From IMG/VR virus record IMGVR_UViG_3300048593_000385: DNA of 64,000 bases. One strand, written 5' to 3'. Of the stretch, positions 27,390-39,054 are shown piece by piece; the first letter of the stretch is position 1; each line of letters begins with the position of its first letter. The stretch is from a virus. Lineage: Duplodnaviria; Heunggongvirae; Uroviricota; Caudoviricetes. Both the position numbers and the translations under genes were made by a program. The notes under the pieces are model-generated. The model was not told the DNA's origin. It worked only from the letters and a program-made list of their open reading frames with translations, and made no database searches.

Positions 27390-27634
27390 TATACTTTCCT
27401 ATCCAATACAATAAAAATCGCTAGTAGTACTACTAGCATAGCGACAAAGGTCCAACCGAGGATATACCATTCAGTCATTATACTAACTCCTCATACACAC
27501 CAACGATCTCTGCGAGACCGTAACCCAATCCAAGAATGAATACGGCAACAGATGGATTGCTCATCATCAAGCAAGCAACGCAGCTCGCAGCAATTCTTAT
27601 ACCACTCTTTACAAAAGAGATTAACTGGTGTTTC

Positions 27635-28048
27635 TTAGGATCTGGATGTTTCATTGTCTACTACCTTCTTGTAACGATTGTAAGTTCCATCAGCCTCTTC
27701 GATCATGATCTCATCAAGCTCAGTATTACATGCTATAACACGCTGTTCACCTTCTGCTACAATACGAGCAGCTGATCGAAGCCTACGCAATACAGCATTG
27801 GCAATACCAAACTTATTACGATTGGTTTCAATAGCTTCTTCTACCGCATCAGCACATTGACGATACAATTCATCAGGAAGTTCCCACGAATGATCGACAG
27901 CGTTTGCAAAGTCACCGACCCGACGAAGGTATGCTTGCCCACCATCCACCGAGATAGAGCCACAGGTGCAAGTTACAAAATCGTGACGGTGCTTAGAGAC
28001 GATGAAGTCTCCGCAGCCTAGACACGTTACAGCATTCTGAATAATCAT
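27635..28048 (-). CDS. Zinc-ribbon protein
   Basis: 137 aa with CLGCGD ... CTCGS Cys pairs near the N-terminus. Confidence 0.45.
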   Translation of the reverse strand: MIIQNAVTCLGCGDFIVSKHRHDFVTCTCGSISVDGGQAYLRRVGDFANAVDHSWELPDELYRQCADAVEEAIETNRNKFGIANAVLRRLRSAARIVAEGEQRVIACNTELDEIMIEEADGTYNRYKKVVDNETSRS

Positions 28049-28287
28049 GACGAAACCTTTTGATGAACCAAGGTAATATGCTTACATTTACCGTGGAAGT
28101 TGAATCCCATACAATCACACACCCAACCAGTTGCAACCATGGTTGTGTTGTATTGTTTACCTTTTGAATTTATATAGGGCCAAGTGAAACCGACCAGATG
28201 GTGTTCTTCGCTGAAATTTATTCCAGGAAGAGCAACAGGAGTTCGATAAGGACTTACTCCAGAAACTTGCATCATATAACCTCTCAA
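28045..28287 (-). CDS. SWIM zinc-finger domain protein
   Basis: 80 aa. WVCDCMGFNFHGKCKHI fits the SWIM CxCxnCxH signature. Confidence 0.5.
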   Translation of the reverse strand: MRGYMMQVSGVSPYRTPVALPGINFSEEHHLVGFTWPYINSKGKQYNTTMVATGWVCDCMGFNFHGKCKHITLVHQKVSS

Positions 28288-28297
28288 TCAATAATTC

Positions 28298-28326
28298 ACT
28301 ATACCCCATTTTTTAAAATAAAGCAA
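28298..28326 (-). promoter_or_regulatory. Early promoter cassette copy 8 (TTGCTT-17-TATAGT)
   Basis: Minus strand reads AATCCTTGCTTTATTTTAAAAAATGGGGTATAGTGAATTATTG. Confidence 0.5.
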
Positions 28327-28329
28327 GGA

Positions 28330-30411
28330 TTATTTTGAGGTTGCGCGATAAACACCATCCCAATTTTTAGGAGCAGCTTTGGCTTCGTTCATACGATCGA
28401 GCATGGCTTCGTAGTAGCCTTTGAGTTCTCCATTCCACAATGGACCCATTTCATATGCCATGGCCATGGCTCTGCCCCAATCACCTGAGCGATATGCATC
28501 CAGGAATCTGTTGTGAGCAATTTCAGCCTTTTCGTTCTTTTCTTCAAGAACTGTATAGATTCGAGCTGGTTCAGTTTTGCCTTTAACAGCAATCAAATCA
28601 AGTTCAATTACTTGGTATACATCCCTAACCAGTTCGGCAGTTTGTGGTCCGACGATGAGTTTGACCCCATAAGGTTTGGTTTGACCTTCGAGGCGAGCAG
28701 CCAAATTAACCCCATCACCCAAGCAAGTGTAATCAAAACGCTGGTCGCTGCCCATATTACCAACAACCACAGTGGCAGTGTTAATACCAAGACCCATACC
28801 GAAAGCTGGAATGCCTTCCCCTTTAATTTCGCCATTAAATATCTCCAGGTCTTTTAGCATCTGGAAAGCAGTGCGCACCGAATCCAAAGCATGTTGAGGG
28901 TTATCTACTGGTGCATTCCAGAAAGCCATCTGTGCGTCACCAATATACTTATCAAGTGTTCCTTTGTTTTCCAGAATAGCTCTTGTCATCACAGTCATAT
29001 ATCTATTCATTATGGAAGTAAGACCTTCAACGTCTTCGCCATAGTGTTCGGAAATAGTAGTGAAGCCACGAACATCAGTAAACATAATCGACAACTGTTG
29101 TTTTGTTCCACCTAGCTTGAGTAACTCTGGCTGTTTCTGCAGCTGAGCAACCAAGTCTGGCGACAGATACGTGCCAAACTGTTTCTTAATCTGTTGCTTT
29201 TGTAGGAATTCGCTGATAAACTTGGCAGTATATAGATGTATATATACAAACAGTGCAGCAGCAATATTGAACGACACATCAAAAAGGATGTGTTCTTTGG
29301 TAAATAAATAGAATGGTAGATACAGATATCCGCCCATGATCACGGCGATATATATAATTGAATAGCGGAAACGAGAAACAACAATCAATGACAGGCAAAC
29401 AAAAACAAATGCACCAAGATCAGCAAGTTGCCCCCACAGAGGAATCGCAACCGAATCACCATTTATCAGAGTCTGAAGAATTGACGCTTGCAACTGATGG
29501 GGATACTGCGCACCTTGTGGAGTCGCTACAGGATTCGCGATACCAGCGGCAGTTACGCCAAGTATCACAATTTTACCTGTCAGATCAGGCAAAGCCTTGT
29601 CACCAATTTCGAATGACGCAAATTTATAGTTCGGATTGACGAACACTCGACCATATTCATCAGTTTTAATTGTTTCGAAGGAAGGAATTCGTAATGCCTC
29701 AACTCCCGTCTGATTTATCTTCGCTTGATATGACGGATCTCCAGCAGCTACACGCAGCATCTCTAGAGCAAATGCGGGATAGTATTCGCCAGATGATTGT
29801 GCTAGAAGAGGAACTCGCCGTACGACCCCGTCTGCCTCAGGTAATGTTGATGTTATCCCAACACCGACAGCGGCTTCTTGCAGAGGTGCAATATTACTTA
29901 GAACGCATGGATATTGAGGAAGAAATTCAGTTGGTTCTCCATCGCCGATTACGGCAACGCCTGTCTTCCGAATTGTCGCACTTGCCTGAGGTGAACCTCG
30001 GCCAGTGGTCGATCCAGCAATACAGTCAGCGGAAACAGTCTGACTGAGTACAACTGGATATTCGCTTAGAGCATTCGCAAGAACTCTATCAGTCCCCAAG
30101 CGGTCAGGCTCAGGCATAAGTATAGTGCTGCCAACAGCGCCAGCCCCTCTGCTGTATATATCGCCAATGATTTTAGCATGGACTTCCCTCGGGAAAGGCC
30201 ACTGACCATATTTTTCAATTGATTTCTCCCCTAAATTAGCGACTACAATCTGCTCAGATTGCTTTGGTGTATCCAGCATGATGTAGTCATAAAATTTAAG
30301 GCGAGACGCTTCAACCAAAAATGGATCTTGTAGCTTTACTACAAGCAGTAGCGCAAATGTGATCAGTACCAACCACGGAGACAATAAAATTTTAATCGCT
30401 TTGTTTGACAT
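28330..30411 (-). CDS. Membrane-bound class III adenylate cyclase with periplasmic CHASE2 sensor domain
   Basis: 693 aa. N-terminal TM, then about 300 aa extracytoplasmic CHASE2-like domain, 3-4 TM helices, then the cyclase homology domain (FTDVRGFTTISE ... DKYIGDAQMAFWNAP ... GINTATVVVGNMG ... DYTCLGDGVNLAARLE). The Lys before YIGD indicates ATP specificity. Confidence 0.85.
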   Translation of the reverse strand: MSNKAIKILLSPWLVLITFALLLVVKLQDPFLVEASRLKFYDYIMLDTPKQSEQIVVANLGEKSIEKYGQWPFPREVHAKIIGDIYSRGAGAVGSTILMPEPDRLGTDRVLANALSEYPVVLSQTVSADCIAGSTTGRGSPQASATIRKTGVAVIGDGEPTEFLPQYPCVLSNIAPLQEAAVGVGITSTLPEADGVVRRVPLLAQSSGEYYPAFALEMLRVAAGDPSYQAKINQTGVEALRIPSFETIKTDEYGRVFVNPNYKFASFEIGDKALPDLTGKIVILGVTAAGIANPVATPQGAQYPHQLQASILQTLINGDSVAIPLWGQLADLGAFVFVCLSLIVVSRFRYSIIYIAVIMGGYLYLPFYLFTKEHILFDVSFNIAAALFVYIHLYTAKFISEFLQKQQIKKQFGTYLSPDLVAQLQKQPELLKLGGTKQQLSIMFTDVRGFTTISEHYGEDVEGLTSIMNRYMTVMTRAILENKGTLDKYIGDAQMAFWNAPVDNPQHALDSVRTAFQMLKDLEIFNGEIKGEGIPAFGMGLGINTATVVVGNMGSDQRFDYTCLGDGVNLAARLEGQTKPYGVKLIVGPQTAELVRDVYQVIELDLIAVKGKTEPARIYTVLEEKNEKAEIAHNRFLDAYRSGDWGRAMAMAYEMGPLWNGELKGYYEAMLDRMNEAKAAPKNWDGVYRATSK

Positions 30412-31483
30412 TTATAATAGTCCCGCCCGATGGTTGATTTACTTCGATTAGAAATGACTTTCCATTACTATCTATGTATAATGTTTTGTTTGAATCTTTT
30501 TTGACAACAATGTCAACAGTACTACTTAGTGTCCGAACGAGCCGTAGATAATCTCCAGAAAGAATTGTAGTTATCTGTGTAGTATTATCTAGCCCAAATG
30601 TTGTTCCGCACAACTTGGTGTCTTCTCTGGTGACACAATTATCTGCTCCTAAAGCATTGTCTAAAAAGTCTTCGCCGAGGTAATTTGCATCGATTGCATT
30701 AATATCAAGATCCGAACTTGCAAGTGCATTTTCTTGTAGATCATCTTTGGCAAGGAAATCTACATCAAGTTCAGAGAGATCCAGCATGTTAGTCCTGATA
30801 TCTCTCAATTCCTCCTCAGTCTTGAATTCTTCGGCAGGTGCTACGATGAGCATATTATCAATTTGATCAAGTGACATATTCAGAATGACTGGACGAGTAG
30901 GTCTGCTGTCTGTGGTTGATACTATGGTCGCTTGAAACGCTCTGGTCAAAATGACTGAGCCAGCAGCATTTGAAACAGTAATCTCACCAACTGATCCATC
31001 TTCCTCTGGCAGAAGGATGACCAAACTCTTTCCAAAATCATCGACTGTGGTCGCAAAGTCTGTTCCACGAACAGCAATCGTGGCTGTTGGTGTTCTCAGA
31101 TTAATATTGCCTTTGTTGATTTTTCCGGATTTACCTGTCGCAAATCTGGCAGTCCCCGAAGCAAATTTGAGAACCATTTTTGATGTTGATGGATTGCCGC
31201 TGTAAACAAAATCATCAACAACAAGCCTAGAATTTTCAGTGACTTTGACGGTAGAGTCGTCTAAAAAAGTTATCTCGACTCTACCGTTTCCAGTCTGCAC
31301 TTTGTCCATCTTGGCAATAGGTAACTGAAGTCGTGAAGGAACCTTTGCAGTTTTCTTCACAACTTCGCTCGAACCTCGAGTTTGAGTTACCTTACCAATA
31401 TTAGCATGGACCACCTGCGTTGCACTGATTAATAGTAATAGTGCTGCCGTTGCTCGTGCTATCAACTTTAAGTGTGTCAACAT
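30392..31483 (-). CDS. Secreted FecR-domain protein
   Basis: 363 aa. Signal peptide (LLLLISATQVVHA). FecR-type beta-rich pattern including ATIAVRGTDFATTV (the a.v.GT.F.v hallmark). Confidence 0.6.
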   Translation of the reverse strand: MLTHLKLIARATAALLLLISATQVVHANIGKVTQTRGSSEVVKKTAKVPSRLQLPIAKMDKVQTGNGRVEITFLDDSTVKVTENSRLVVDDFVYSGNPSTSKMVLKFASGTARFATGKSGKINKGNINLRTPTATIAVRGTDFATTVDDFGKSLVILLPEEDGSVGEITVSNAAGSVILTRAFQATIVSTTDSRPTRPVILNMSLDQIDNMLIVAPAEEFKTEEELRDIRTNMLDLSELDVDFLAKDDLQENALASSDLDINAIDANYLGEDFLDNALGADNCVTREDTKLCGTTFGLDNTTQITTILSGDYLRLVRTLSSTVDIVVKKDSNKTLYIDSNGKSFLIEVNQPSGGTIINVKQSD

Positions 31484-32096
31484 TTGTTGTGCTCTGCTGA
31501 TTTATTGTTAATGTATTTGTACTGCCTGTAAGAACCAATTCAATATTCTTCCCAGCATTGCCATTCTGCAGCGTAGTAATAGTATTACCATCACCAACAA
31601 TAGTCTTAGTGTTCACCACATCATCCGCATTTATGGTGGATGTCATTGTGTTGGTGTCACCAGTGATTGCGATAGTTTGTGTAGCATTAGTGGCTGATGC
31701 CGCTGTACCCTGATTAAAGGTCAAGTCGTTTGAATCCCCAGTCACTGTAAGTGTTTTGGTGGATCCAGCCACACTACCGCTATCGCCTTCGTCATACGTC
31801 AACTTATTGTTGTCGCCAGTAACAGTAACATCCTTATCGACATTATCTGCTTGAACAATAGAGCCTTGGATAATGTTTCCATTACCTTCTTGTTTGACTG
31901 TAACTGTTTGGTTATTACCTTCAATTACTACTCGATTCTGCTCAGAACCGATGCTGTTGGTTTGACCTTTTTGGGTAATAGTAATAGTGCTACTATCACC
32001 GACCTGATCAATAAAAATCGAGTTGGTTGTTGTTTGTGCAAAACTCACCGAACTCGTCATCAGAAACATAATGAAAAGAGCTATTTTATTTTTCAT
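31401..32096 (-). CDS. Secreted curlin-repeat protein (CsgA/CsgB-like amyloid subunit)
   Basis: 231 aa. Signal peptide. Tandem degenerate repeats of the form ITQKGQTNS / VKQEGNGNIIQG / TVTGDNNKLTYDEGDSG / TVTGDSNDLTFNQG / AITGDTNTMTS / LTGSTNTLTINQ, resembling curlin repeats (S-x5-Q-x-G-x-G-N). Confidence 0.6.
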   Translation of the reverse strand: MKNKIALFIMFLMTSSVSFAQTTTNSIFIDQVGDSSTITITQKGQTNSIGSEQNRVVIEGNNQTVTVKQEGNGNIIQGSIVQADNVDKDVTVTGDNNKLTYDEGDSGSVAGSTKTLTVTGDSNDLTFNQGTAASATNATQTIAITGDTNTMTSTINADDVVNTKTIVGDGNTITTLQNGNAGKNIELVLTGSTNTLTINQQSTTNVDTLKVDSTSNGSTITINQCNAGGPC

Positions 32097-32101
32097 TACC
32101 C

Positions 32102-32920
32102 TTATTCCTTTAATGATACCGATCGATCGATATCGATCTTCGGTGCGAACTTAAAATATCCTTTCTCGATACCCTGTTTTATCAATTGTAAAACTGCTTC
32201 TTCAATCGCCATTTTGACTGCCATGGTGTTGGCTTCATTTTCGGTCATGCCTGCTTCGGCTTCCACCAATTTTGTGCCAACATCGACAAATTTAAACAGT
32301 GACAGATCTTTACCGACAGATAATACTGTTTTAGAAACTTGCACATTAAGAACAACTTCTCCAGTATTAGTGTTGACTCCTCGCAGAGAAACAACAACCT
32401 GATCTTTTCGGTAGACGACAGAGCCTCCTACACCAAGATATCTTGCTCCTGCTCCGCCTGTCTGTATGTTACTATCATACCCGATAATACCACCTTGGAT
32501 GATGAGCCCAGCGAACAGCATTGGTTCGAGTTTATTTGCACCCTCACCAAGATATTCTTCACGAGTCTGTCTAACAATCTGACGTTCTTTGGCAAGATCC
32601 TCGACACGATTTCGTTCTACAACTCTAAACCATGTTCCTCCACCTGCATCCCTCAAAGCAGAAATTAATAGTGGTGTTCCGCCTTGTGTGACTGCAGTTG
32701 ATATGCTGGCAATACCATCTTTATCTCTGCGTTGACCTGTCATATCAGGAAAGTCATAAACCGCTACTACTGCTTGTCTGTCAGGCGCAGGAAGGTTGTA
32801 TAATTCTTTGACTTGTGTCTTTACAATCTTTGCATCTTCTTTTAATTGAAGACCAACAGGTCCAGATGCCACGCAACCACACAGAAGAAAAGGTAATAAT
32901 AGAATCTTCCACATTACCAC
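32102..32920 (-). CDS. csgG: Curli production assembly/transport outer-membrane lipoprotein CsgG
   Basis: 272 aa. Lipobox LLCGC. Extensive collinearity with E. coli CsgG, for example AVVAVYDFPDMTGQ (VSVYNIQDETGQ) and GLIIQGGIIGYDSNIQTGGAGARYLGVGG (NIMVEGSIIGYESNVKSGGVGARYFGIGA). Confidence 0.9.
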   Translation of the reverse strand: MVMWKILLLPFLLCGCVASGPVGLQLKEDAKIVKTQVKELYNLPAPDRQAVVAVYDFPDMTGQRRDKDGIASISTAVTQGGTPLLISALRDAGGGTWFRVVERNRVEDLAKERQIVRQTREEYLGEGANKLEPMLFAGLIIQGGIIGYDSNIQTGGAGARYLGVGGSVVYRKDQVVVSLRGVNTNTGEVVLNVQVSKTVLSVGKDLSLFKFVDVGTKLVEAEAGMTENEANTMAVKMAIEEAVLQLIKQGIEKGYFKFAPKIDIDRSVSLKE

Positions 32921-33366
32921 TTGAATCCACTTGTTGGAACTATAATCTCAGTTTGATTGCCAGCTGCATCAATGATCACAAGTTTAATTTCTGTTTCAGT
33001 TTTTTCATACTTGATAGTGTTGCCTTCGAGTATGAATTCTCCAGCCTCTCCGCCATCTTCGCCAAACAAATTATTGGTAAGCTGTTGTGCCAGCTGAGAA
33101 TAGATACGAGACTGCAAGTTATTCAAGAAACGATTCAAAATAGAGTTTTTTTCTTCGAGAGCCTTTGCTTTCAAATCAGCTTCTATCTTGTCCTGTATAG
33201 TTTTTTTACGCAGAGTCTCTTGATTTTCAATCGTCAGCCATTGCGCTCCAGCATTGACGCCAGAGAATGAAGGATTTTTAAATTGATGGACCAGTTCACT
33301 TGCTTGCAGGTGGCTGCTTGTCAGGAGCAGCATTAGTGCCGTCACTCGTTTTAGCATCTTTCCCAT
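32914..33366 (-). CDS. csgF: Curli assembly protein CsgF-like
   Basis: 150 aa. Signal peptide, then LVHQFKNPSFSGVNAGAQWLTIENQ (E. coli CsgF: [25 protein letters not shown]). C-terminal KLVIIDAAGNQTEIIVPTSG ([30 protein letters not shown]). Confidence 0.7.
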   Translation of the reverse strand: MGKMLKRVTALMLLLTSSHLQASELVHQFKNPSFSGVNAGAQWLTIENQETLRKKTIQDKIEADLKAKALEEKNSILNRFLNNLQSRIYSQLAQQLTNNLFGEDGGEAGEFILEGNTIKYEKTETEIKLVIIDAAGNQTEIIVPTSGFKW

Positions 33367-33422
33367 CCTTTATTTTTTTGTTTGAACAAAAAGAAAAGTT
33401 GAGCTCGAAGACTTTGAGGATT

Positions 33423-33689
33423 TCAATCTTTAGATTTACTTGCATTTTTATGCTCCTCGTGAACCTGCAGCACAACGTTAACCTTTTGTTGTAACCTAAT
33501 TAGATCATTGTCCAACATTCTAATACGATCAATCAGTGCGATCAAAATTACATTTGTTTCACCAATCAGAGGCATTAATCTGTCAGTAACAAACTTATAG
33601 ATAAAGAATACAAAGTAACCCATTCCCACAGACGCTACGATCGGGAAACCATATTGTTTTATTAACTCCGCAACAACTTGTGGATCCAT
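33423..33689 (-). CDS. Small single-TM protein, paralog 1 (holin-like?)
   Basis: 88 aa with N-terminal TM (FPIVASVGMGYFVFFIYKFV) followed by a coiled-coil. Tandem paralog of the next ORF. Confidence 0.4.
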   Translation of the reverse strand: MDPQVVAELIKQYGFPIVASVGMGYFVFFIYKFVTDRLMPLIGETNVILIALIDRIRMLDNDLIRLQQKVNVVLQVHEEHKNASKSKD

Positions 33690-33976
33690 CAGTCCCTCCG
33701 AGCATCATTCTTTCCATCTGCTCGGGCGATTCTATCCAAATCAGGTCGAAGACCAAGAGCAGAACTAACTACAGCATCAACACGAATAATGTCGTGGTTC
33801 ATAGTTTTCACTCGGTTGTCCAACCCCATAATGATACCTTGCATTCCTTTGATTGCTTTCAAAACACTCTCAAGAATATAGTTGATCACAAAATACACGA
33901 AAACCCCACCGAGCAAACAAGCTGCGATGGGGAAGCCGACATCGGCGATCAGTTGAAAGATAACATCATATTGCAT
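33689..33976 (-). CDS. Small single-TM protein, paralog 2 (holin-like?)
   Basis: 95 aa. Same architecture (FPIAACLLGGVFVYFVINYI, then a coiled-coil). Confidence 0.4.
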   Translation of the reverse strand: MQYDVIFQLIADVGFPIAACLLGGVFVYFVINYILESVLKAIKGMQGIIMGLDNRVKTMNHDIIRVDAVVSSALGLRPDLDRIARADGKNDARRD

Positions 33977-34168
33977 GCATCTATTTATAATAAAAGCGAA
34001 GTGGGAGGATTTAGGTATACCTCCAAGGTCCAGTCAATTACTATCTGTAATCTCGACCCACGACTCGTTAGCTGGTTAAGCAGGAGACCAATCCCCGAGT
34101 CTACTTTATCCCCACTGACGAGGGGATTATTCAGTCACACTTCTTACTAGACCCGTCGGTCCAGATAT

Positions 34169-34245
34169 TTGGTACGGGATGACAGGCTCGAACTGCCGAC
34201 ATTCTGCGTGTAAAGCAGACGCTCTACCAACTGAGCTAATCCCGC
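34169..34245 (-). tRNA. tRNA-Val (TAC)
   Basis: Cloverleaf with anticodon loop TTTACAC, T-arm GGCAG-TTCGAGC-CTGTC, CCA encoded. Confidence 0.65.
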
Positions 34246-34246
34246 A

Positions 34247-34684
34247 TTAACTTCTTACCATATGGTCAGCTGCATGCGTTGCAGCAAATGCCTCAGGTTT
34301 AACTTTTGCATCAAGACCAGTAGTTCCTTTGACATATCCCAATGCTTCTTTTATCGCAATACTAGATTTGTGCTTAGGATCAGGATTGATGTCAAGGTGA
34401 ATTTCTAGTTTGCGATCGCCAACAACATCAATAATTTCTGTTGCTGCTTGGATCGCAAATCCAGCTTCGGTGATCATTCTTTGACGAAGGTTTCCGTAGT
34501 CGCGCATGTCAACCGAATTGTGCCAAAGCTGACAACCATGCTTCGAATCCTTGTGCAGGATGATCACGGTCGAATACTTTGCCCACCACTCCTTGTTCTT
34601 TTTATATCGAATGCTATCGGCACCAACATAAATTGTAGAAGTGTCGCTTGATTCTATAATTGCCTTCTTTGCTTCATCAAACAT
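34247..34684 (-). CDS. Hypothetical protein, possibly RNase H-like fold nuclease
   Basis: 145-aa ORF embedded in the tRNA array. Acidic residues are spaced as in RuvC/YqgF-like nucleases (IYVGADS ... ITEAGF ... EIHLDINPD), which is weak evidence. Confidence 0.3.
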   Translation of the reverse strand: MFDEAKKAIIESSDTSTIYVGADSIRYKKNKEWWAKYSTVIILHKDSKHGCQLWHNSVDMRDYGNLRQRMITEAGFAIQAATEIIDVVGDRKLEIHLDINPDPKHKSSIAIKEALGYVKGTTGLDAKVKPEAFAATHAADHMVRS

Positions 34685-34698
34685 AAATCACCTAAAAA

Positions 34699-34773
34699 CT
34701 GGCGAAGGTGCCGAGACTCGAACTCGGAACGACGGTTTTGGAGACCGTAATGATAGCCATTTCACCACACCGA
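34699..34773 (-). tRNA. tRNA-Trp (CCA), acceptor stem with two mismatches
   Basis: Anticodon arm ACGGT-CTCCAAA-ACCGT, T-arm CCGAG-TTCGAGT-CTCGG, CCA encoded. The acceptor GTCGGTG/CACCTTC has two non-pairing positions. Confidence 0.5.
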
Positions 34774-34779
34774 CAAAAA

Positions 34780-34857
<78 letters not shown>

Positions 34858-34862
34858 AATTA

Positions 34863-34944
34863 TGGAGCCCAAGACAGGATTCGAACCTGCATCTTACTTC
34901 CAGTTACCTTTGGCTCCGTTCGTAGCGGAGAGGGATACTTGGGC
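34863..34944 (-). other. Degenerate tRNA-like element (perfect acceptor stem, T-arm and CCA, but aberrant D/anticodon region)
   Basis: Acceptor GCCCAAG/CTTGGGC, T-arm GCAGG-TTCGAAT-CCTGT, CCA. The interior contains a perfect 5-bp/7-nt hairpin CTCCG-CTACGAA-CGGAG (anticodon-like ACG) but no orthodox D-arm. Confidence 0.3.
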
Positions 34945-34949
34945 AAAAG

Positions 34950-35024
34950 TGGAGCGGATGATCGGGATCGAACCGACGACGAACAGCTTGGAAGGCTGAC
35001 ACTCTACCACTGAGTTACATCCGC
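34950..35024 (-). tRNA. tRNA-Gly (TCC)
   Basis: Anticodon loop CTTCCAA, T-arm GTCGG-TTCGATC-CCGAT, CCA encoded. Confidence 0.6.
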
Positions 35025-35039
35025 ATTAAACTTATTTAG

Positions 35040-35115
35040 TGGCGAGGACGATGGGTTTCGATCCCACTACCTCCAGCGTGACAAGCTGGTGCTCTCCCGA
35101 TTGAGCTACGCCCCC
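35040..35115 (-). tRNA. tRNA-Asp (GTC)
   Basis: Anticodon arm CCAGC-TTGTCAC-GCTGG, CCA encoded. Confidence 0.65.
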
Positions 35116-35117
35116 AA

Positions 35118-35202
35118 TGGTGGGTCAGTGAGGTATCGATCCTCCCCCGAAGACGGATCGGATTTACAGTCCGACTGCCAGAGCCACTGGCTTTACCGAC
35201 CC
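35118..35202 (-). tRNA. tRNA-Tyr (GTA), long variable arm
   Basis: Anticodon arm TCGGA-CTGTAAA-TCCGA, extended variable arm, CCA encoded. Confidence 0.6.
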
Positions 35203-35208
35203 TTAAAA

Positions 35209-35291
35209 TGGTACGGGTAGAGGGACTTGAACCCCCACGCCGAAGCGCTAGTACCTAAAACTAGTGTGTCTGCCAATTCCACCATACCCGC
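35209..35291 (-). tRNA. tRNA-Leu (TAG), long variable arm
   Basis: Anticodon arm CTAGT-TTTAGGT-ACTAG, T-arm GGGGG-TTCAAGT-CCCTC, CCA encoded. Confidence 0.6.
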
Positions 35292-35380
35292 ATAGGAGTA
35301 TCTCACGTCTCGATACACGTGCTAAACATTCACGACAGACTCCATACACCATACGGTATGCGAGTAGTTTAGCTATTAAC

Positions 35381-35456
35381 TGGTGCCTTCGGAGGGAGTC
35401 GAACCCCCGACACGTGGATCTTCAATCCACTGCTCTACCAACTGAGCTACAAAGGC
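35381..35456 (-). tRNA. tRNA-Phe (GAA)
   Basis: Anticodon arm GTGGA-TTGAAGA-TCCAC, T-arm GGGGG-TTCGACT-CCCTC, CCA encoded. Confidence 0.65.
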
Positions 35457-35548
35457 AAATAAAAACTCCTTAACAAATGCGTTTCCTAGGACACAAATGT
35501 TACCGCCTGTCAGTTCAGGTCGGAACTTAAACCAGAGGTCGGAGTCAA

Positions 35549-36565
35549 TTAGATAATTATTGCTGCCGTACAATTTGCACATATCTCACGATATGCTCGT
35601 TCAACTGTAGCGGCATGGGCATCGCTGCCCCAAATTTCTCGAATAGTTTGGGTGTTAATGTTTCCAAACTTATAGTCGAAATTATAATCGTTACAACAAA
35701 GAATCACGTCACCTGCTGCATTGATATGCAGCCATTCGGTGGTTCTGTCGCCCCAATTTCCACAACCGACAACGGTGCGAGTCTCGAGTCTGCGTTCCTG
35801 CATCTCTTTGTTAGAAATATAATCAGAAAGCAAACCAGTGCGATCCATCAACGAACCTTTGCCGACATTAAACTTGGGGAACCTTCGATCAGCGATCACC
35901 CACTGTCGTTCCCACTCGCCATGTTCTCTGTCTAAGTTAATATCAAGTTCGTCAAACTTTGGACCTTTGGTTGTTCGACCATTGAAATCTTCAGTGTTAA
36001 CACCGTTGACATGGATATTGAGTTCTATAAGCCCATGCAGAGTTTCTCCTGCATAATCCAGATTCTCCATCAATTCGTCGAACCGTCTTTCAGGAAACCC
36101 AGCACGCTTTGCCCACAGTTCCTTCTCAAAAGCAGGAATGTTCAGCCCAATATGAGGAACAACATCTTTATACTCTTTGATCAGATCGACTTTTTCTTTG
36201 TTCAGGTTCATACCATTACTGAGAATAAAAGTCTGCAGCTTATATTTTCTGGCAAGTTCCAACAGCCCAGCAAAATCCTTATACAAAAGAATCTCGCTAT
36301 AATGAGTTGTCATAAACAAACTAAAGCTGCGATCAACAACACCTTCTTCTTTGTCTCGTTCTTCTACAAATTGCTTGAAGATTTTCTCGACAGTTTCCAA
36401 AGGCATTTGAACCATGCCTTCTTCTGGCTGAGGAATATATCTTACAGGGCAATACCAACATTTGGCATTACAGAATCCAAACACATCAAGCTGAAGCATT
36501 TTGATCTTCGCCTTGGCGAGTCTAGATTGCACATAAGTCATATTACTGTCGCTAGAAGATAACAT
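35549..36565 (-). CDS. Radical SAM domain protein (Cys-rich C-terminal, SPASM/twitch-like)
   Basis: 338 aa. CNAKCWYCP matches the CxxxCxxC radical-SAM cluster motif near the N-terminus. The C-terminal CGNWGD ... CCNDYNF ... CANCT gives an auxiliary cluster signature. Confidence 0.7.
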   Translation of the reverse strand: MLSSSDSNMTYVQSRLAKAKIKMLQLDVFGFCNAKCWYCPVRYIPQPEEGMVQMPLETVEKIFKQFVEERDKEEGVVDRSFSLFMTTHYSEILLYKDFAGLLELARKYKLQTFILSNGMNLNKEKVDLIKEYKDVVPHIGLNIPAFEKELWAKRAGFPERRFDELMENLDYAGETLHGLIELNIHVNGVNTEDFNGRTTKGPKFDELDINLDREHGEWERQWVIADRRFPKFNVGKGSLMDRTGLLSDYISNKEMQERRLETRTVVGCGNWGDRTTEWLHINAAGDVILCCNDYNFDYKFGNINTQTIREIWGSDAHAATVERAYREICANCTAAIII

Positions 36566-36719
36566 TTTAATTCCTTTTTATGAGCGACCACCCACAGTGT
36601 GCCTTGATCAATTACTTCCGGACGCTTGATCTTCCTAGATAGTCTTTACTGTTGCAACAGCAAGCGCTACCCTTTTCTCTATGTGGTTTCCCACGAGGTT
36701 CAGCAGAGGTGGTCTATAA

Positions 36720-36795
36720 TGGTGGAGGATAACGGGATCGAACCGTTGACCTTCTGCGTGCAAGGCAGACGCTCTCCCAGCTGAGCTAATCCCCC
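36720..36795 (-). tRNA. tRNA-Ala (TGC)
   Basis: Anticodon arm CTGCC-TTGCACG-CAG.., T-arm AACGG-TTCGATC-CCGTT, CCA encoded. Confidence 0.65.
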
Positions 36796-36944
36796 AATTC
36801 TTTAAACACAATTTTAATATTCGAAACTTTATATATCTCTGCTAAAACCGTTTCATCTGTAAATGCCGCACGATTCAAAGGTGTATCGGGCACATACATC
36901 ACACATTCTGCAGATTCGCTTCTCATATTCATATCCTAGAATAA

Positions 36945-37020
36945 TGGTGCCCTCATGAGGACTCGAACCCCAGACCCCCTGCTTACAAGGCAGGTGCTCT
37001 ACCAACTGAGCTATAAGGGC
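36945..37020 (-). tRNA. tRNA-Thr (TGT)
   Basis: Anticodon arm CCTGC-CTTGTAA-GCAGG, T-arm CTGGG-TTCGAGT-CCTCA, CCA encoded. Confidence 0.65.
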
Positions 37021-37205
37021 AGTAAACTTCTTAAATGACCACACTGGCTACTGAGATGTTGCCACGCACACTGGCAGTAATTTCGCTCTTTACGTTCCTA
37101 TCTTCCCCCGAGCGCTTGGTCGCCACAGGAACTTCCAGTGTGGTCATCTAAAAGGTCTAACAATTTCAAAGAGCAACGTATTTAGTGATTTTCTCACTAT
37201 AATTC

Positions 37206-37234
37206 ACTATAACTCGAAATAAATAATATGTCAA
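37206..37234 (-). promoter_or_regulatory. Early promoter cassette copy 9, perfect consensus (TTGACA-17-TATAGT), driving the tRNA sub-cluster
   Basis: Minus strand reads AGTGCTTGACATATTATTTATTTCGAGTTATAGTGAATTATAGTGAG. Confidence 0.6.
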
Positions 37235-37245
37235 GCACTATTTTA

Positions 37246-37323
37246 TGGTAGGGGTAGTGGGACTCGAACCCACACTGTGGGGATTTTAAGTCCCCTGACT
37301 CTAACCAATTGGCCTATACCCCC
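37246..37323 (-). tRNA. tRNA-Leu (TAA)
   Basis: Anticodon arm GGGGA-CTTAAAA-TCCCC, T-arm GTGGG-TTCGAGT-CCCAC, CCA encoded. Confidence 0.6.
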
Positions 37324-37324
37324 A

Positions 37325-37400
37325 TGGGGTGATCGACGGGTAACGATCCCGCAACTCCGGATTCACAATCCAGCATGTATCCATTAACACCTCGACCACC
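37325..37400 (-). tRNA. tRNA-His (GTG) with encoded G-1
   Basis: Anticodon arm CTGGA-TTGTGAA-TCCGG, T-arm GCGGG-ATCGTTA-CCCGT, an extra 5' G pairing opposite the discriminator (typical of bacterial tRNA-His), CCA encoded. Confidence 0.5.
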
Positions 37401-37507
37401 ATAAACTCTGTGTGGAACAGTCCCCGCTGCTCTGTATTACTGTTTGCTCAATGGGGTTACATAAGGTCGACCTCATCTCTTTTCTATGCAAACAAACCAC
37501 GCAAACT

Positions 37508-37596
37508 TGGCGGAACGTCTGGGAGTCGAACCCAGTCTACCCTTTACAGGTAGTACAGATTAGCAGTCTGCTGCATTACCGTCCTGCCCACGTTCC
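37508..37596 (-). tRNA. tRNA-Ser (GCT), long variable arm
   Basis: Acceptor GGAACGT/ACGTTCC, anticodon loop CTGCTAA, long variable arm, T-arm CTGGG-TTCGACT-CCCAG, CCA encoded. Confidence 0.55.
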
Positions 37597-37602
37597 TATG
37601 TC

Positions 37603-38400
37603 TTACTTTACGTTGACAATACCCTTGAAGTCATAAGGAACAACGATGGTGTTAACCTTGCCGTCCTTAATCGCTTCAGCAATCGTCACGATAGCAGTAG
37701 CTTCCATATACTTAGTTGCGCCAGCGTTAGCATTCAATGCAGAGATACGCTGTGCTTCAAGTTTTGCAGTAGAAACTTCTACTTCCTTACGCTTGTTTTC
37801 ATTTTGCGCTTGGACCAAAAGGTTAGCAGACTGCACGATATTGGCTGCAGGCTTGACCTGACGAACCAGAACCTGTGAGATAGAAATTGAGTTATCTAGC
37901 TTTTCAGATGCGAGGCTTGCAATAATTTCCTGACGAACAAGCTGTTCGATTTCAGCACGATTGTCTGCCATCTTCAGTGACTCGTAGCGACGAGCAACCT
38001 TGTATGCAGCATTACGACCCAACTGACGAATGTAGTTATACATCAACAGCGTATCACCTTCTTCGGTGTCAGCGTGGAAGCCACGATTCTTCTCGATGTA
38101 GAGTTCGGCAACCGAACCTGGATTGATCGAGTAGATGACTGCCATGTCGAAGTCAGCAACGGTCGAGTTATCTGACGCGAGTGGAGTCAAGTCAGCAACG
38201 TCAACAGAAACGTCCTTGGTAGGAAACGTCATAACATCGCCAAACAGTGTCTGGTTGATTGATCCTGGCATCAACTCTGTGGTTTCAATGGTCTTGTCGA
38301 TAGCACGACGAACACCTACTTCACCTGTTTCAATTCGAGTACAAGCAGCAGTCGTAGCCATGAGACCAGCGAGCACAGCAATCTTAGCAATACGATTCAT
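37603..38400 (-). CDS. SPFH/Band-7 (prohibitin/HflKC-like) domain protein with N-terminal signal-anchor
   Basis: 265 aa with an N-terminal hydrophobic segment, followed by a domain with SPFH-type periodicity and a C-terminal Ala/Gln-rich coiled-coil. Confidence 0.6.
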   Translation of the reverse strand: MNRIAKIAVLAGLMATTAACTRIETGEVGVRRAIDKTIETTELMPGSINQTLFGDVMTFPTKDVSVDVADLTPLASDNSTVADFDMAVIYSINPGSVAELYIEKNRGFHADTEEGDTLLMYNYIRQLGRNAAYKVARRYESLKMADNRAEIEQLVRQEIIASLASEKLDNSISISQVLVRQVKPAANIVQSANLLVQAQNENKRKEVEVSTAKLEAQRISALNANAGATKYMEATAIVTIAEAIKDGKVNTIVVPYDFKGIVNVK

Positions 38401-38412
38401 AATATATCTTCC

Positions 38413-38637
38413 TTAAAACAAAACGATAATAGCAAGAGCAAATAGCGACGCGATTGTCGCAATGCCCAACGAGTAACTGGCCAACTTAACAAACTCCATC
38501 TTTTCTTTTCCGGTCAGCCGACGGAAAATATCAATGCTTGTATATAAAATTATACACATTGACAAGAAAGCAAAAATCATTTTACCCATAACAATCTCCA
38601 AAAATGGTGGACGGTCTGGGGTTTGAACCCAGGACAC
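38413..38637 (-). CDS. Small membrane protein
   Basis: 74 aa with two TM segments. Confidence 0.35.
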   Translation of the reverse strand: MSWVQTPDRPPFLEIVMGKMIFAFLSMCIILYTSIDIFRRLTGKEKMEFVKLASYSLGIATIASLFALAIIVLF

Positions 38638-38680
38638 ACAGGTTAAAAGCCCGTTGCTCTACCTACTGAGCTAACCGTCC
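38605..38680 (-). tRNA. tRNA-Lys (TTT)
   Basis: Anticodon arm ACGGG-CTTTTAA-CCTGT, T-arm CTGGG-TTCAAAC-CCCAG, CCA encoded. It overlaps the predicted start of the small membrane ORF. Confidence 0.6.
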
Positions 38681-38684
38681 GAAT

Positions 38685-38760: not shown

Positions 38761-38768
38761 ATTAAACT

Positions 38769-38984: not shown

Positions 38985-38996
38985 TTCCTATTATTC

Positions 38997-39025: not shown

Positions 39026-39054
39026 GAAGTATTTTCAAAAATCGTCCATCAAAC

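What the first reader, a model, noticed from the sequence alone, without database searches (positions are those of the whole stretch)
27635..33976. One co-oriented block: SWIM/Zn-ribbon proteins, cyclase, FecR, curlin, CsgG, CsgF and two small TM paralogs
All nine genes are contiguous on the minus strand, with 0-40 bp gaps or overlaps (FecR and curlin ORFs overlap by about 80 nt; CsgG/CsgF by 7 nt). This suggests a single transcription unit coupling an envelope sensor/second-messenger generator to an amyloid secretion system. Such a genetic linkage is, to my knowledge, not described even in bacteria. The two tandem 88/95-aa single-TM paralogs directly upstream could be holin-like or accessory periplasmic components (a CsgE substitute?). 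No internal early-promoter cassette copy interrupts the block; the nearest are at 28298 and 37206.
Basis: inference. Interest (0 to 1): 0.8.

Follow-up and report, generated by a model that had tools for sequence, protein, structure and literature searches.

The report
Phage curli-secretion plus adenylate-cyclase module
This phage carries an already published seven-gene envelope module (curli-type outer-membrane secretion genes, a periplasmic FecR-domain protein, a membrane adenylate cyclase and two small membrane proteins); it is real and conserved but not new, and the two zinc-finger genes next to it are not part of it.

Summary
All nine ORFs and nearly all domain calls are correct. The unit is smaller than claimed, and the linkage is already described.

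- **The module.** Seven genes form it (28330-33976, minus strand): TM95, TM88, CsgF, CsgG, curlin, FecR and a CHASE2 adenylate cyclase. The same order recurs in Pelagibacter phage HTVC008M, Methylophilales phage Melnitz and about 90 viral contigs.
- **Prior description.** It matches the viral T8SS module of Wittmers 2022 (PMC9599517). Zaragoza-Solas 2020 and Buchholz 2022 also discuss it.
- **The two downstream genes.** The 80-aa CxC..CxH gene and the DUF7695 zinc-ribbon gene occur only in the closest relatives. They have their own conserved sigma70-like promoter at 28291-28326, inside the claimed block, and they survive natural deletion of the T8SS genes.

Findings beyond the literature I read:
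- Caulobacterales genome bins carry CsgF-CsgG-curlin-curlin-FecR-CHASE2 cyclase among ordinary bacterial genes, without the TM pair. The linkage therefore exists in bacteria.
- The TM pair shows no histidine-kinase features. It is a stand-alone family of small membrane proteins.
- Identity patterns split the block into three exchange units: the TM pair, CsgF through FecR, and the cyclase.
- A T4-type late-promoter motif lies 5 nt before the first ATG, and a manA RNA lies just upstream.

Function remains inferred. Interest is moderate to low.

The parts
33994..34163 (-). manA RNA motif (Rfam RF01745). It lies between tRNA-Val and the first gene of the module. It may be a leader or terminator element, or an RNA linked to the tRNA array.
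   Evidence: Score 66.1 bits against a gathering score of 55.2, E 1e-14, full-length match. It holds the same position in L036 and L038, lies 0.5-1.1 kb upstream in L018 and L022, and is absent from most other module carriers.
33982..33989 (-). TATAAATA, a T4-type late-promoter-like motif 5 nt upstream of the TM95 ATG.
   Evidence: The window has 11 copies against 2.1 expected. Other copies sit 25-29 nt upstream of the baseplate tail tube cap gene and three uncharacterised ORFs. The motif is conserved 5-7 nt before the ATG in L035, L036, L015-L018, L021, L022 and L024. In four of these it follows a GC hairpin and T-run. A similar motif lies within 45 nt upstream of the TM95-type gene in 64 of 103 loci.
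33689..33976 (-). TM95, a small single-pass membrane protein (type A, conserved C-terminus LRPDLDRIARADGKNDARRD). It is specific to phage copies of the module.
   Evidence: phrog_18771, E 4e-29, and a weak hit to holin phrog_4898, E 0.003. No Pfam family. 2453 unnamed homologues. One hydrophobic segment at residues 13-31.
33423..33689 (-). TM88, paralog of TM95 (type B, with a variable charged tail). It is translationally coupled to TM95 (TGATG).
   Evidence: 26% identical to TM95, sharing the motif LDNR/IDRxRxxxNDLIR. phrog_18771, E 2e-30.
32914..33366 (-). CsgF homologue with a signal peptide and a mature N-terminus containing HQFKNPSFSG.
   Evidence: Pfam CsgF, E 4e-22, covering residues 8-144. 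Conserved in all module carriers.
32102..32920 (-). CsgG homologue, an outer-membrane lipoprotein channel with lipobox LLCGC.
   Evidence: Pfam CsgG, E 1e-47. Full-length alignment to E. coli CsgG, E 5e-47. The lipobox Cys aligns with that of the other phage CsgG sequences, and the Gly four residues before it is invariant.
31401..32096 (-). Secreted curlin-repeat protein, the presumed T8SS substrate. It has a signal peptide and Q/N/G/T-rich repeats.
   Evidence: Pfam Curlin_rpt, 34.5 bits against a gathering score of 20.7, two repeats recognised. The repeat pattern is visible in the sequence. Homologues hold the same position in phages and in bacterial clusters.
30392..31483 (-). Periplasmic FecR-domain protein. 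It has a signal peptide, a FecR domain at residues 60-155, an acidic linker and a C-terminal beta-rich region. Its 5' end overlaps the curlin gene by 83 nt.
   Evidence: Pfam FecR, E 4e-12. The N-terminal signal peptide aligns from residue 1 in relatives and in bacterial L042 and L043. It has no second hydrophobic segment.
28330..30411 (-). Membrane adenylate cyclase. Order of parts: TM1, periplasmic CHASE2 domain, three TM segments, then a cytoplasmic class III cyclase domain.
   Evidence: Pfam CHASE2 and Guanylate_cyc. The best solved relatives are adenylate cyclases (a bacteriophytochrome-cyclase fusion 6fht, CyaB 3r5g, cyanobacterial 1wc0), and the D, K, D, T, N and R catalytic positions are visibly conserved in the alignment. 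Hydrophobic segments.
28291..28326 (-). Sigma70-like promoter cassette TTGCTT-N17-TATAGTGAATTAT, in the 42-nt gap after the cyclase stop codon.
   Evidence: Sequence. It is one of 10 minus-strand copies of TA(T/G)AGTGAAT(A/T)AT; 11 copies on both strands against 2.3 expected. An equivalent promoter holds the same position in L035, L036 and L038.
28045..28287 (-). 80-aa protein with a CxCx8CxH signature. It is a neighbour, not part of the conserved module.
   Evidence: No Pfam or PHROG family. Homologues occur only in L035, L036 and L038. It is retained when the T8SS genes are deleted.
27635..28048 (-). DUF7695 zinc-ribbon protein. It is a neighbour, not part of the conserved module.
   Evidence: Pfam DUF7695, E 1.5e-21. 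Its distribution matches that of the 80-aa gene.
27419..27438 (-). First intrinsic-terminator-like hairpin downstream of the block on the minus strand.
   Evidence: The scan found no more sites than shuffled sequence gives, so this is weak evidence.

Best explanation
**What it is (about 0.9).** The real unit is a seven-gene phage envelope module at window 28330-33976, minus strand. It belongs to the viral type VIII secretion (curli) - FecR - adenylate cyclase module already described in pelagiphages. Five of its genes (CsgF, CsgG, curlin, FecR, CHASE2 cyclase) correspond to a cluster that also exists in Caulobacterales genome bins. Phages add two small single-pass membrane paralogs. The two zinc-finger genes downstream form a separate unit with its own promoter.

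**How it most likely works (inferred, about 0.35).**
1. The module is transcribed from its own late-type promoter. Translation is coupled across overlapping or abutting genes.
2. The lipoprotein CsgG forms the outer-membrane channel and CsgF caps it.
3. The Sec-exported curlin-repeat protein is secreted through this channel to the cell surface.
4. The soluble periplasmic FecR-domain protein shares its pattern of divergence with the T8SS genes. It couples the state of the channel or its substrate to the periplasmic CHASE2 domain of the cyclase.
5. The cyclase changes cytoplasmic cAMP in the infected cell.
6. The two small membrane proteins act at the inner membrane with the cyclase, or as a holin-like output.

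The overall logic is an outer membrane to periplasm to inner membrane relay, like FecA-FecR cell-surface signalling, with cAMP as the output instead of a sigma factor.
For: **Identity**
- Domain calls.
- The same gene order occurs in HTVC008M and Melnitz, in 32 CsgG-seeded viral contigs, and in 56 of 66 informative TM95-seeded viral contigs.
- Published descriptions: PMC9599517, PMC7029224, PMC9004378.

**Bacterial counterpart**
- The three bacterial CsgG loci closest to the phage protein are L042, L043 and L044 (Caulobacteraceae and Henriciella bins).
- They carry CsgF-CsgG-curlin-curlin-FecR-CHASE2 cyclase, at 40-65% identity to the window.
- In L042 and L044, the two whose flanks I scanned, the neighbours are a TonB-dependent receptor, an alanine-racemase-fold protein, FAA hydrolase, acyl-CoA dehydrogenase, cytochrome c and DsbA.
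- Their GC is 51-53%, against 42% for the phage block.

**Localisation and activity**
- Signal peptides, a lipobox and TM segments place every product in the envelope.
- The cyclase keeps all class III catalytic positions, with Lys and Thr at the substrate-specifying positions. Its closest solved relatives are adenylate cyclases.

**FecR is tied to the T8SS genes**
- CsgF, CsgG, curlin and FecR are all close or all distant together across relatives.
- The TM pair follows a different pattern.

**FecR paired with CHASE2 elsewhere**
- A periplasmic FecR-domain protein next to a CHASE2 sensor recurs in a Burkholderia operon whose disruption gave a strain lacking biofilm production (PMC5192318).
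- A Sinorhizobium CHASE2 cyclase lacking its CHASE2 domain produces cAMP constitutively (PMC5498481).

**Own promoter**
- A late-type motif is conserved before the first gene. In several relatives a terminator precedes it.

**Exclusion of the zinc-finger genes**.
Against: - Nothing has been tested experimentally. No transcript, fibre, cAMP or interaction data exist for this phage.
- Some relatives carry the TM pair plus the cyclase without T8SS or FecR (L185, L188, L193). Others carry the TM pair alone (L145, L146, L150, L152, L160, L036, L038). The cyclase and the TM pair can therefore persist without the proposed input arm.
- Only two curlin repeats are recognised by Pfam.
- The residues aligned with the E. 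coli CsgG constriction (Y51, N55, F56; numbering from memory) are not conserved.
- The cAMP receptor is unknown.
- A structure model of FecR failed (pLDDT 32), so its C-terminal half is uncharacterised.
- The late-promoter motif is only 5 nt from the ATG. That implies either a leaderless mRNA or a motif with another role.
- The bacterial clusters come from metagenome bins, which can be mis-binned.
Confidence: 0.6

Rival explanations
1. One reading: all nine genes, including the CxC..CxH and DUF7695 zinc-finger genes, form one transcription unit and one functional system.
For: - All nine genes are co-oriented.
- The scan found no intrinsic terminator between the cyclase and the 80-aa gene, so read-through is possible.
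- The close relative L035 has the same nine-gene arrangement.
Against: - A conserved sigma70-like promoter precedes the 80-aa gene in the window, L035, L036 and L038.
- The two genes are absent from the module in 32 viral contigs, HTVC008M and Melnitz.
- They are kept when CsgF through the cyclase are deleted.
Confidence: 0.08
2. The published reading (Wittmers 2022, Zaragoza-Solas 2020). The module is a complete curli machine whose purpose is surface fibres: cell aggregation ('sibling capture') or blocking of competing phages. The cyclase and FecR act upstream as regulators of T8SS expression or function, as cAMP does for csgD in E. coli.
For: - CsgG, CsgF and a curlin-repeat substrate with a signal peptide are all present.
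- The genes are expressed in ocean metatranscriptomes, according to PMC9599517.
- The module is widespread and conserved.
Against: - Neither the phage module nor the bacterial clusters contain a cAMP-responsive regulator.
- A phage module driven by its own late-type promoter has little need for transcriptional control by cAMP.
- Buchholz saw no clumping of infected cells (PMC9004378).
- The CHASE2 sensor is periplasmic, so information flows from the envelope to cAMP, not the reverse.
Confidence: 0.25
3. Lysis-timing device. The CsgG-CsgF pore is repurposed as a gated envelope pore (Buchholz 2022). The two small membrane paralogs are a holin-antiholin pair. The FecR-CHASE2 cyclase senses the periplasm to set the time of lysis, analogous to T4 lysis inhibition.
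For: - The TM pair has the features of a holin: small size, one TM segment and a charged C-terminal tail.
- Both paralogs weakly hit a PHROG holin family (E 0.003).
- A late-promoter-like motif precedes them.
- The TM pair stays next to the cyclase in rearranged variants L031, L167, L171 and L186.
Against: - The holin hit is marginal, and Pfam gives no holin family.
- No endolysin or spanin gene is adjacent.
- CsgG sits in the outer membrane, whereas holins act at the inner membrane.
- The bacterial clusters work without the TM pair.
Confidence: 0.2
4. The genes are neighbours in a variable genome region near the tRNA array and have no joint function.
For: - Published work places the curli cluster in a variable region of pelagimyophage genomes (PMC7029224).
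- Natural deletion variants exist.
- Sub-units recombine.
Against: - The order is conserved at 30-45% protein identity across phages of different hosts.
- The five-gene core is also linked in bacterial chromosomes.
- TM95 homologues occur in exactly the six isolate phage records that carry the cyclase; the seventh CsgG hit is a 1.5-kb fragment.
- Genes overlap or are translationally coupled.
Confidence: 0.05

Closest known systems
Viral T8SS (curli) module of pelagiphages: HTVC008M, Melnitz, and HTVC023P-type podophages (Wittmers 2022, PMC9599517; Zaragoza-Solas 2020, PMC7029224; Buchholz 2022, PMC9004378)
   Same: - The gene order matches: two small proteins, CsgF, CsgG, curlin, FecR, adenylate cyclase.
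- Protein identity to HTVC008M and Melnitz is 26-49%.
- All three have the T4-like myophage background, and the window and Melnitz also carry an alphaproteobacterial-type permuted tmRNA.
   Different: - This phage belongs to a different lineage: 43% GC and 23 tRNAs, with no nucleotide match to any isolate.
- It lacks the second curlin gene between FecR and the cyclase.
- Its T8SS, FecR and cyclase proteins are closer to Caulobacterales homologues than to pelagiphage ones: CsgG 56-65% against 43-45%, cyclase 45-54% against 40%.
- By position, the small proteins labelled 'histidine kinase' in that paper appear to be the TM pair. The TM pair shows no kinase features here.
Alphaproteobacterial CsgF-CsgG-curlin-curlin-FecR-CHASE2 cyclase cluster (Caulobacteraceae bins CANGCO010000005 and CANGEH010000001; Henriciella bin CBFICP010000001), found here
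   Same: It has the same five gene families in the same order and orientation, at 40-65% identity. FecR has a signal peptide in both.
   Different: - It has no TM95/TM88 pair.
- It has two curlin genes.
- It sits in a bacterial metabolic gene context at 51-53% GC.
- I did not find it described in the papers I read. About 65 other alphaproteobacterial CsgF-CsgG loci lack FecR and the cyclase within 10 kb.
E. coli curli system (csgBAC / csgDEFG)
   Same: - CsgG aligns over its full length (E 5e-47).
- The CsgF and curlin repeat families are present.
   Different: - No CsgE, CsgC or CsgD was detected among the module's proteins.
- There is one substrate gene rather than a CsgA/CsgB pair.
- The constriction-loop residues differ.
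- FecR, the cyclase and the TM pair have no counterpart in the E. coli operons.
FecA-FecR-FecI cell-surface signalling
   Same: A FecR-domain protein sits in the periplasm between an outer-membrane component and an inner-membrane signalling protein.
   Different: - The protein has no N-terminal anti-sigma domain and no TM anchor; its only hydrophobic segment is the N-terminal signal peptide.
- The block contains no ECF sigma factor and no TonB-dependent transducer.
- The output would be cAMP.
Bacterial FecR-domain protein plus CHASE2 sensor pairs (Burkholderia BiofilmReg operon, PMC5192318; Sinorhizobium CHASE2 cyclases CyaD1, CyaD2 and CyaK, PMC5498481)
   Same: - A periplasmic FecR-domain protein is encoded next to a CHASE2 membrane sensor.
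- In Sinorhizobium the CHASE2 domain is fused to a class III cyclase.
   Different: - In Burkholderia the output is a histidine kinase and the FecR protein also carries LysM.
- Neither system is linked to CsgG or CsgF.
Phage holin-antiholin pairs (for example T4 t and rI)
   Same: The TM pair consists of two small membrane proteins with charged tails behind a late-type promoter motif. They weakly hit a PHROG holin family.
   Different: There is no significant homology, no adjacent endolysin, and no functional test.

Membership tests
Type VIII secretion / curli system | CsgG outer-membrane lipoprotein channel | tested here: met
   Pfam CsgG, E 1e-47. Full-length alignment to E. coli CsgG, E 5e-47. 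Lipobox LLCGC; the Cys aligns across the phage CsgG sequences and the Gly four residues before it is invariant.
Type VIII secretion / curli system | CsgF accessory protein with an N-terminal segment that inserts into the channel | tested here: met
   Pfam CsgF, E 4e-22, covering residues 8-144. The mature N-terminus contains HQFKNPSFSG, which resembles the E. coli [10 protein letters not shown] motif (the E. coli motif is from memory). Direct phmmer against E. coli CsgF is weak (E 0.097).
Type VIII secretion / curli system | Secreted subunit built of curlin repeats | tested here: met
   Curlin_rpt, 34.5 bits against a gathering score of 20.7, two repeats. The sequence has a signal peptide and further Q/N/G/T-rich repeats. 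Amyloid formation itself cannot be tested here.
Type VIII secretion / curli system | CsgE, CsgC and CsgD accessory and regulatory genes of the E. coli type | tested here: not met
   None was detected among the nine proteins by Pfam. The literature reports that they are also absent from alphaproteobacterial curli loci (PMC9599517).
Viral T8SS-FecR-adenylate cyclase module (Wittmers 2022) | Conserved order: small protein(s), CsgF, CsgG, curlin, FecR, (second curlin), adenylate cyclase, in a phage genome | tested here: met
   Synteny with HTVC008M and Melnitz and with about 90 viral contigs. The phage context is shown by tRNAs, tmRNA, RNR, PhoH, baseplate and head genes.
Class III adenylate cyclase with a CHASE2 sensor | CHASE2 domain flanked by TM segments, plus a cyclase domain with intact metal-binding, substrate-specifying and transition-state residues | tested here: met
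   Pfam CHASE2 and Guanylate_cyc. TM segments at 6-24, 327-345, 352-370 and 375-393. D, K, D, T, N and R are conserved in alignments to adenylate cyclases 6fht and 3r5g.
FecR-type anti-sigma factor | N-terminal cytoplasmic anti-sigma domain, one TM anchor, and partner ECF sigma factor and TonB-dependent transducer genes | tested here: not met
   The protein has only a FecR domain behind an N-terminal signal-peptide-like segment. No sigma factor or TonB-dependent receptor gene lies in the block. It carries a FecR domain but is not a FecR anti-sigma factor.
Histidine kinase (label used in PMC9599517 for the small proteins preceding CsgF) | HisKA/DHp domain with an invariant phospho-accepting His, plus an HATPase_c domain | tested here: not met
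   - No kinase domain is found by Pfam at E up to 5.
- The only invariant column in 19 family members is one Gly. The His in MNHD is replaced by Asn in many members.
- The 150 best of 600 family clusters are all proteins of 61-209 aa, never part of a larger protein.
- That their 'HK' is this family is inferred from gene position only.
Holin | Small membrane protein with a charged C-terminus, homology to a holin family, and lysis-gene neighbours | tested here: inconclusive
   Size, single TM segment and charged tail fit. The PHROG holin hit is only E 0.003. Pfam gives a marginal YvrJ hit. No endolysin is adjacent.
SWIM zinc finger (80-aa protein) | CxCxnCxH signature recognised by the family profile | tested here: inconclusive
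   CDCMGFNFHGKCKH is visible in the sequence. There is no Pfam or PHROG hit at E up to 0.1 and 0.01 respectively.
manA RNA motif (RF01745) | Covariance-model score above Rfam's gathering score | tested here: met
   66.1 bits against 55.2, full-length match.

The most novel reading that the evidence does not exclude
The genes would build a trans-envelope sensory device. A T8SS-exported curlin structure on the cell surface would act as the input. The FecR-domain protein would relay its state to the CHASE2 adenylate cyclase. In phages the resulting cAMP signal would act with the holin-like TM pair to time lysis or respond to superinfection. The same five-gene core in Caulobacterales would then be an unrecognised 'curli-coupled cell-surface signalling' pathway of bacteria.
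Probability: 0.12. Interest if true: 0.8.

Novelty: new member of a known kind. Interest (0 to 1): 0.35.

Why it matters
The finding as written is not new. Phage-encoded curli secretion genes linked to FecR and an adenylate cyclase have been described in marine phage genomes since 2013-2022, but their function has never been tested.

This instance shows three things:
- The module extends to a distinct, tRNA-rich T4-like lineage.
- The whole five-gene core exists in bacterial chromosomes. This gives a culturable route to test what a CsgG/CsgF-FecR-CHASE2 cyclase assembly does.
- The module is built of exchangeable sub-units, and natural deletion variants exist.

These points sharpen which interactions to test: FecR with the T8SS parts, and the small membrane pair with the cyclase. 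They also correct the 'histidine kinase' label. If the relay idea holds, it would be a new way for a virus or a bacterium to convert an outer-surface state into cAMP.

Tried and rejected
- **Nucleotide search.** Megablast of the block against isolate phages found nothing. Protein searches were needed.
- **FecR structure.** An AlphaFold2 model built on an alignment of close homologues (76-93% identical) failed (mean pLDDT 32). I discarded it and ran no fold search.
- **Annotating the TM pair.** Pfam, a PDB profile search and a search of 1.84 billion cluster-representative proteins gave only coiled-coil noise, a marginal YvrJ hit and more small proteins. I rejected the histidine-kinase reading.
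- **manA RNA as a module-specific leader.** Rejected as a general rule. It abuts TM95 only in the window, L036 and L038, and those two relatives lack the T8SS genes. It is displaced or absent elsewhere. It tracks the tRNA array rather than the T8SS genes.
- **A small ORF between TM88 and CsgF.** A 41-43 codon ORF overlapping the end of TM88 and the start of CsgF is called in several contigs. It is similar among window relatives, but the HTVC008M ORF in that position is unrelated. This is inconclusive.
- **Generic promoter and terminator scans.** They found no more sites than shuffled sequence gives. I relied instead on phage-specific repeated motifs.

Full report
**1. The observation**

The nine minus-strand ORFs exist as described. 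Pfam confirms most domain calls:
- a 693-aa protein with CHASE2 and a class III cyclase domain
- a 363-aa FecR-domain protein
- a 231-aa curlin-repeat protein
- CsgG and CsgF
- a DUF7695 zinc-ribbon protein

The 80-aa 'SWIM' protein and the two small proteins have no Pfam family. The overlaps are as reported: curlin/FecR 83 nt, CsgF/CsgG 7 nt, FecR/cyclase 20 nt, and TM95/TM88 sharing one base.

The window is a T4-like phage genome. It has 23 tRNAs, a permuted alphaproteobacterial-type tmRNA, ribonucleotide reductase, PhoH, baseplate and head genes, and about 43% GC.

**2. The linkage is already known**

Megablast found no isolate relative. tblastn with CsgG and with the cyclase both hit Pelagibacter phage HTVC008M and the four Methylophilales Melnitz phages. 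Their annotations show the same cassette: two proteins of about 93 aa (92 and 115 aa as annotated in Melnitz), CsgF, CsgG, a curlin-associated protein, a FecR-domain protein, a second curlin-like protein, and the adenylate cyclase.

Three papers discuss it:
- Zaragoza-Solas 2020 (PMC7029224) reported a co-occurring 'curli operon' that includes two same-size hypothetical proteins, and proposed 'sibling capture'.
- Buchholz 2022 (PMC9004378) proposed a gated pore or pinholin that times lysis.
- Wittmers 2022 (PMC9599517) described the full module as HK (one or two), CsgF, CsgG, CsgA/B, FecR, a second CsgA/B and AC. They found it in both myo- and podoviruses, found it expressed in ocean metatranscriptomes, and placed its proteins closest to alphaproteobacterial ones.

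**3. Does the block move as a unit?**

A CsgG-seeded scan of viral contigs returned 32 loci. tblastn with all window proteins showed TM95-TM88-CsgF-CsgG-curlin-FecR-cyclase in the same order wherever the contig was long enough. Neither zinc-finger gene had a single hit.

The zinc-finger genes appear only in the nearest relatives, L035, L036 and L038. L036 and L038 are natural deletion variants:
- Homology to the window runs at 91% identity up to position 33364, which is the CsgF start codon.
- It then resumes at a 112-nt cyclase remnant (window 28797-28686).
- A promoter cassette and the two zinc-finger genes follow.

A sigma70-like promoter, TTGC(C/T)T-N17-TA(T/G)A(G/A)T, sits between the cyclase stop and the 80-aa gene in the window, L035, L036 and L038. 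It belongs to a family of 10 minus-strand copies in the window; 11 copies on both strands against 2.3 expected. None of these copies lies within 28330-33976.

The real unit is therefore seven genes. The zinc-finger pair is a separately promoted neighbour.

**4. Start of the unit**

TATAAATA, the T4-type late-promoter consensus, occurs 11 times in the window against 2.1 expected. It sits 25-29 nt upstream of the start codons of the baseplate tail tube cap gene and of three uncharacterised ORFs. One copy lies only 5 nt before the TM95 ATG.

That placement, 5-7 nt before the ATG, is conserved in at least ten relatives. In L018, L021, L022 and L024 a GC-rich hairpin with a T-run comes directly before it. 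A late-type motif occurs within 45 nt upstream of the TM95-type gene in 64 of 103 loci.

I infer that the module has its own late-type promoter. In this lineage the mRNA may be leaderless, but that is not shown.

Directly upstream, at 33994-34163, is a full-length manA RNA motif (66.1 bits against a gathering score of 55.2). manA is a riboswitch candidate known from T4-like cyanophages (PMC2864571). It abuts TM95 only in the window and in the deletion variants, and it is displaced or absent in other carriers. It is not a general part of the module.

**5. The parts**

- **CsgG.** It aligns with E. coli CsgG over its full length (E 5e-47) and has a lipobox. The residues aligned with the E. coli constriction are not conserved.
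- **CsgF.** It matches the Pfam profile across its length, including the N-terminal NP-F-G motif.
- **Curlin.** It has a signal peptide, two Pfam-recognised repeats and further Q/N/G/T-rich repeats.
- **FecR.** It has a signal peptide and no membrane anchor, so it is predicted to be soluble in the periplasm. It is not a FecR anti-sigma factor. The 363-aa reading, which creates the 83-nt overlap, is supported because the signal peptide aligns from residue 1 in relatives and in bacterial homologues.
- **Cyclase.** It has TM1, a periplasmic CHASE2 domain, three TM segments and a cytoplasmic class III domain. All catalytic residues are intact, with Lys and Thr at the specificity positions. Its closest solved relatives are adenylate cyclases.
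- **TM pair.** The two proteins are paralogs of one family (phrog_18771) with a shared LDNR/IDR...NDLIR motif.
  - The family has 2453 close homologues and 600 clusters at 50% identity. The 150 best-scoring clusters are all stand-alone proteins of 61-209 aa.
  - It has no invariant His and no kinase domain. The 'histidine kinase' label, which I match to these genes by position only, is not supported.
  - A holin reading has only marginal support (E 0.003).

**6. Bacterial counterpart**

I scanned one genome per species with a phage CsgG alignment. Among the hits were about ten metagenome-bin contigs that also carry the TM pair; I take these to be phage contigs placed in bacterial bins. Setting those aside, the three best hits are two Caulobacteraceae bins and a Henriciella bin. 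The Henriciella contig is 397 kb.

These three carry CsgF-CsgG-curlin-curlin-FecR-CHASE2 cyclase in the phage order, with no TM pair. Identities to the window are CsgG 56-65%, FecR 40-52% and cyclase 45-54%. All are higher than the window's identities to HTVC008M.

Their flanks (scanned in L042 and L044) encode ordinary bacterial functions:
- a TonB-dependent receptor
- an alanine-racemase-fold protein
- FAA hydrolase
- acyl-CoA dehydrogenase
- cytochrome c
- DsbA
- a TetR-family regulator

Their GC is 51-53%, against 42% for the phage block. About 65 other alphaproteobacterial CsgF-CsgG loci have no FecR or cyclase within 10 kb.

The linkage therefore exists in bacteria, though rarely. This goes beyond the statement in PMC9599517 that these genes are not within bacterial T8SS operons. 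The caveat is that these are metagenome bins.

**7. Sub-structure of the module**

Protein identities to the window across 65 loci fall into discordant groups:

| Group | Loci | TM95 | TM88 | CsgF to FecR | Cyclase |
|---|---|---|---|---|---|
| 1 | L015-L018, L021 | 92-94% | 82-84% | 75-86% | 71-80% |
| 2 | L003-L014, L019, L020, L023, L025 | 63-67% | 49-60% | 68-89% | 69-72% |
| 3 | L035, L024, L039 | 84-99% | 78-85% | 32-67% | 67-78% |

CsgF, CsgG, curlin and FecR thus behave as one exchange unit. The TM pair behaves as another, and the cyclase is intermediate.

Of 66 informative viral loci seeded with TM95:
- 56 have the TM pair immediately followed by CsgF-CsgG
- 1 has the T8SS genes elsewhere in the locus
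- 3 have the TM pair plus the cyclase only
- 6 have neither

In every rearranged variant (L031, L167/L169, L171, L186) the cyclase sits next to the TM pair. In the isolate collection, TM95 homologues occur in exactly the six records that carry the module. Where the T8SS genes are absent, unrelated genes follow the TM pair.

**8. Mechanism**

The following is shown:
- the gene families present
- the predicted envelope location of every product
- an intact adenylate cyclase catalytic site
- co-inheritance of the genes
- the exchange sub-units

The following is inferred. CsgG and CsgF export the curlin protein. FecR, whose sequence divergence tracks that of the T8SS genes, links the state of the channel or substrate to the CHASE2 domain. 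The cyclase sets cAMP, and the TM pair works at the inner membrane with the cyclase or as a lysis component.

Supporting context from the literature:
- A periplasmic FecR-domain protein sits next to a CHASE2 sensor in a Burkholderia operon whose disruption gave a strain lacking biofilm production (PMC5192318).
- A Sinorhizobium CHASE2 cyclase lacking its CHASE2 domain produces cAMP constitutively (PMC5498481).

I give the relay about 0.35. The fibre-first reading gets about 0.25, and a lysis-timing device about 0.2.

**9. Verdict**

The feature is real and the domain calls are largely correct. The unit is seven genes, not nine, and it is a new member of a known kind of phage module. The added value lies in the bacterial counterpart, the sub-unit structure, the natural deletion variants, the promoter layout and the correction of the kinase label. 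Interest is 0.35.

Noticed in passing
window 33994-34163 (-): A full-length manA RNA motif (RF01745, 66 bits) lies between tRNA-Val and the first module gene. Its 3' hairpin is followed by a U-rich stretch. It also occurs in L036, L038, L018 and L022, always at the end of the tRNA array.
   Followed up: partly
window 14591-15045 (-): A permuted (two-piece) alphaproteobacterial-type tmRNA gene with tag ANDNDVAFALAA. A similar one lies just downstream of the module in L039. Melnitz is reported to carry one as well.
   Followed up: no
window 34170-41353 (-) and 11009-11411 (-): There are 23 tRNA genes, mostly in one minus-strand array directly upstream of the module. The array is interrupted by an RNase H-like gene (34247-34684) and a radical SAM/SPASM gene (35549-36565).
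   Followed up: no
L035 7311-7744: A GOLLD RNA (RF02032, 209 bits) lies inside the tRNA array of the closest long relative. It has no counterpart in the window.
   Followed up: no
window 15544, 16054, 17993, 24446, 28291, 37199, 38990, 41363, 41982, 42865 (all -): A repeated promoter-like cassette, TA(T/G)AGTGAAT(A/T)AT, is preceded by a TTGACA-like hexamer at the two copies whose upstream sequence I read (28291, 37199); 11 copies on both strands against 2.3 expected. These are probably the phage's early promoters.
   Followed up: partly
window 33982-33989 (-): The late-promoter-like TATAAATA is only 5 nt from the TM95 ATG, against 25-29 nt at other genes. The spacing is conserved in relatives, which would give a leaderless mRNA if the motif is a promoter.
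   Followed up: partly
window 33296-33475 (-): A small ORF (about 42-49 codons from its ATG) overlaps the end of TM88 and the start of CsgF. Its peptide, INLKIEILKVF..FSFCS, is similar in L035, L036 and L039. It could be a real micro-gene, or the similarity could reflect conserved intergenic RNA.
   Followed up: partly
L039 (ENA GROS21-1 scaffold_25, 356.7 kb): The module also occurs on contigs of 320-357 kb that carry RNR, ThyX and a tmRNA. These may be jumbo phages, concatemers or misassemblies.
   Followed up: no
L036 and L038: These natural deletion variants of the window's lineage have lost CsgF through most of the cyclase. A 112-nt cyclase remnant is left behind.
   Followed up: yes
window 8168-10231 (+): A 687-aa protein gives PHROG hits to tape measure, peptidase and endolysin-like families. 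It may be a tail protein with a lytic domain. It is the only lysis-related hit I saw in the window.
   Followed up: no
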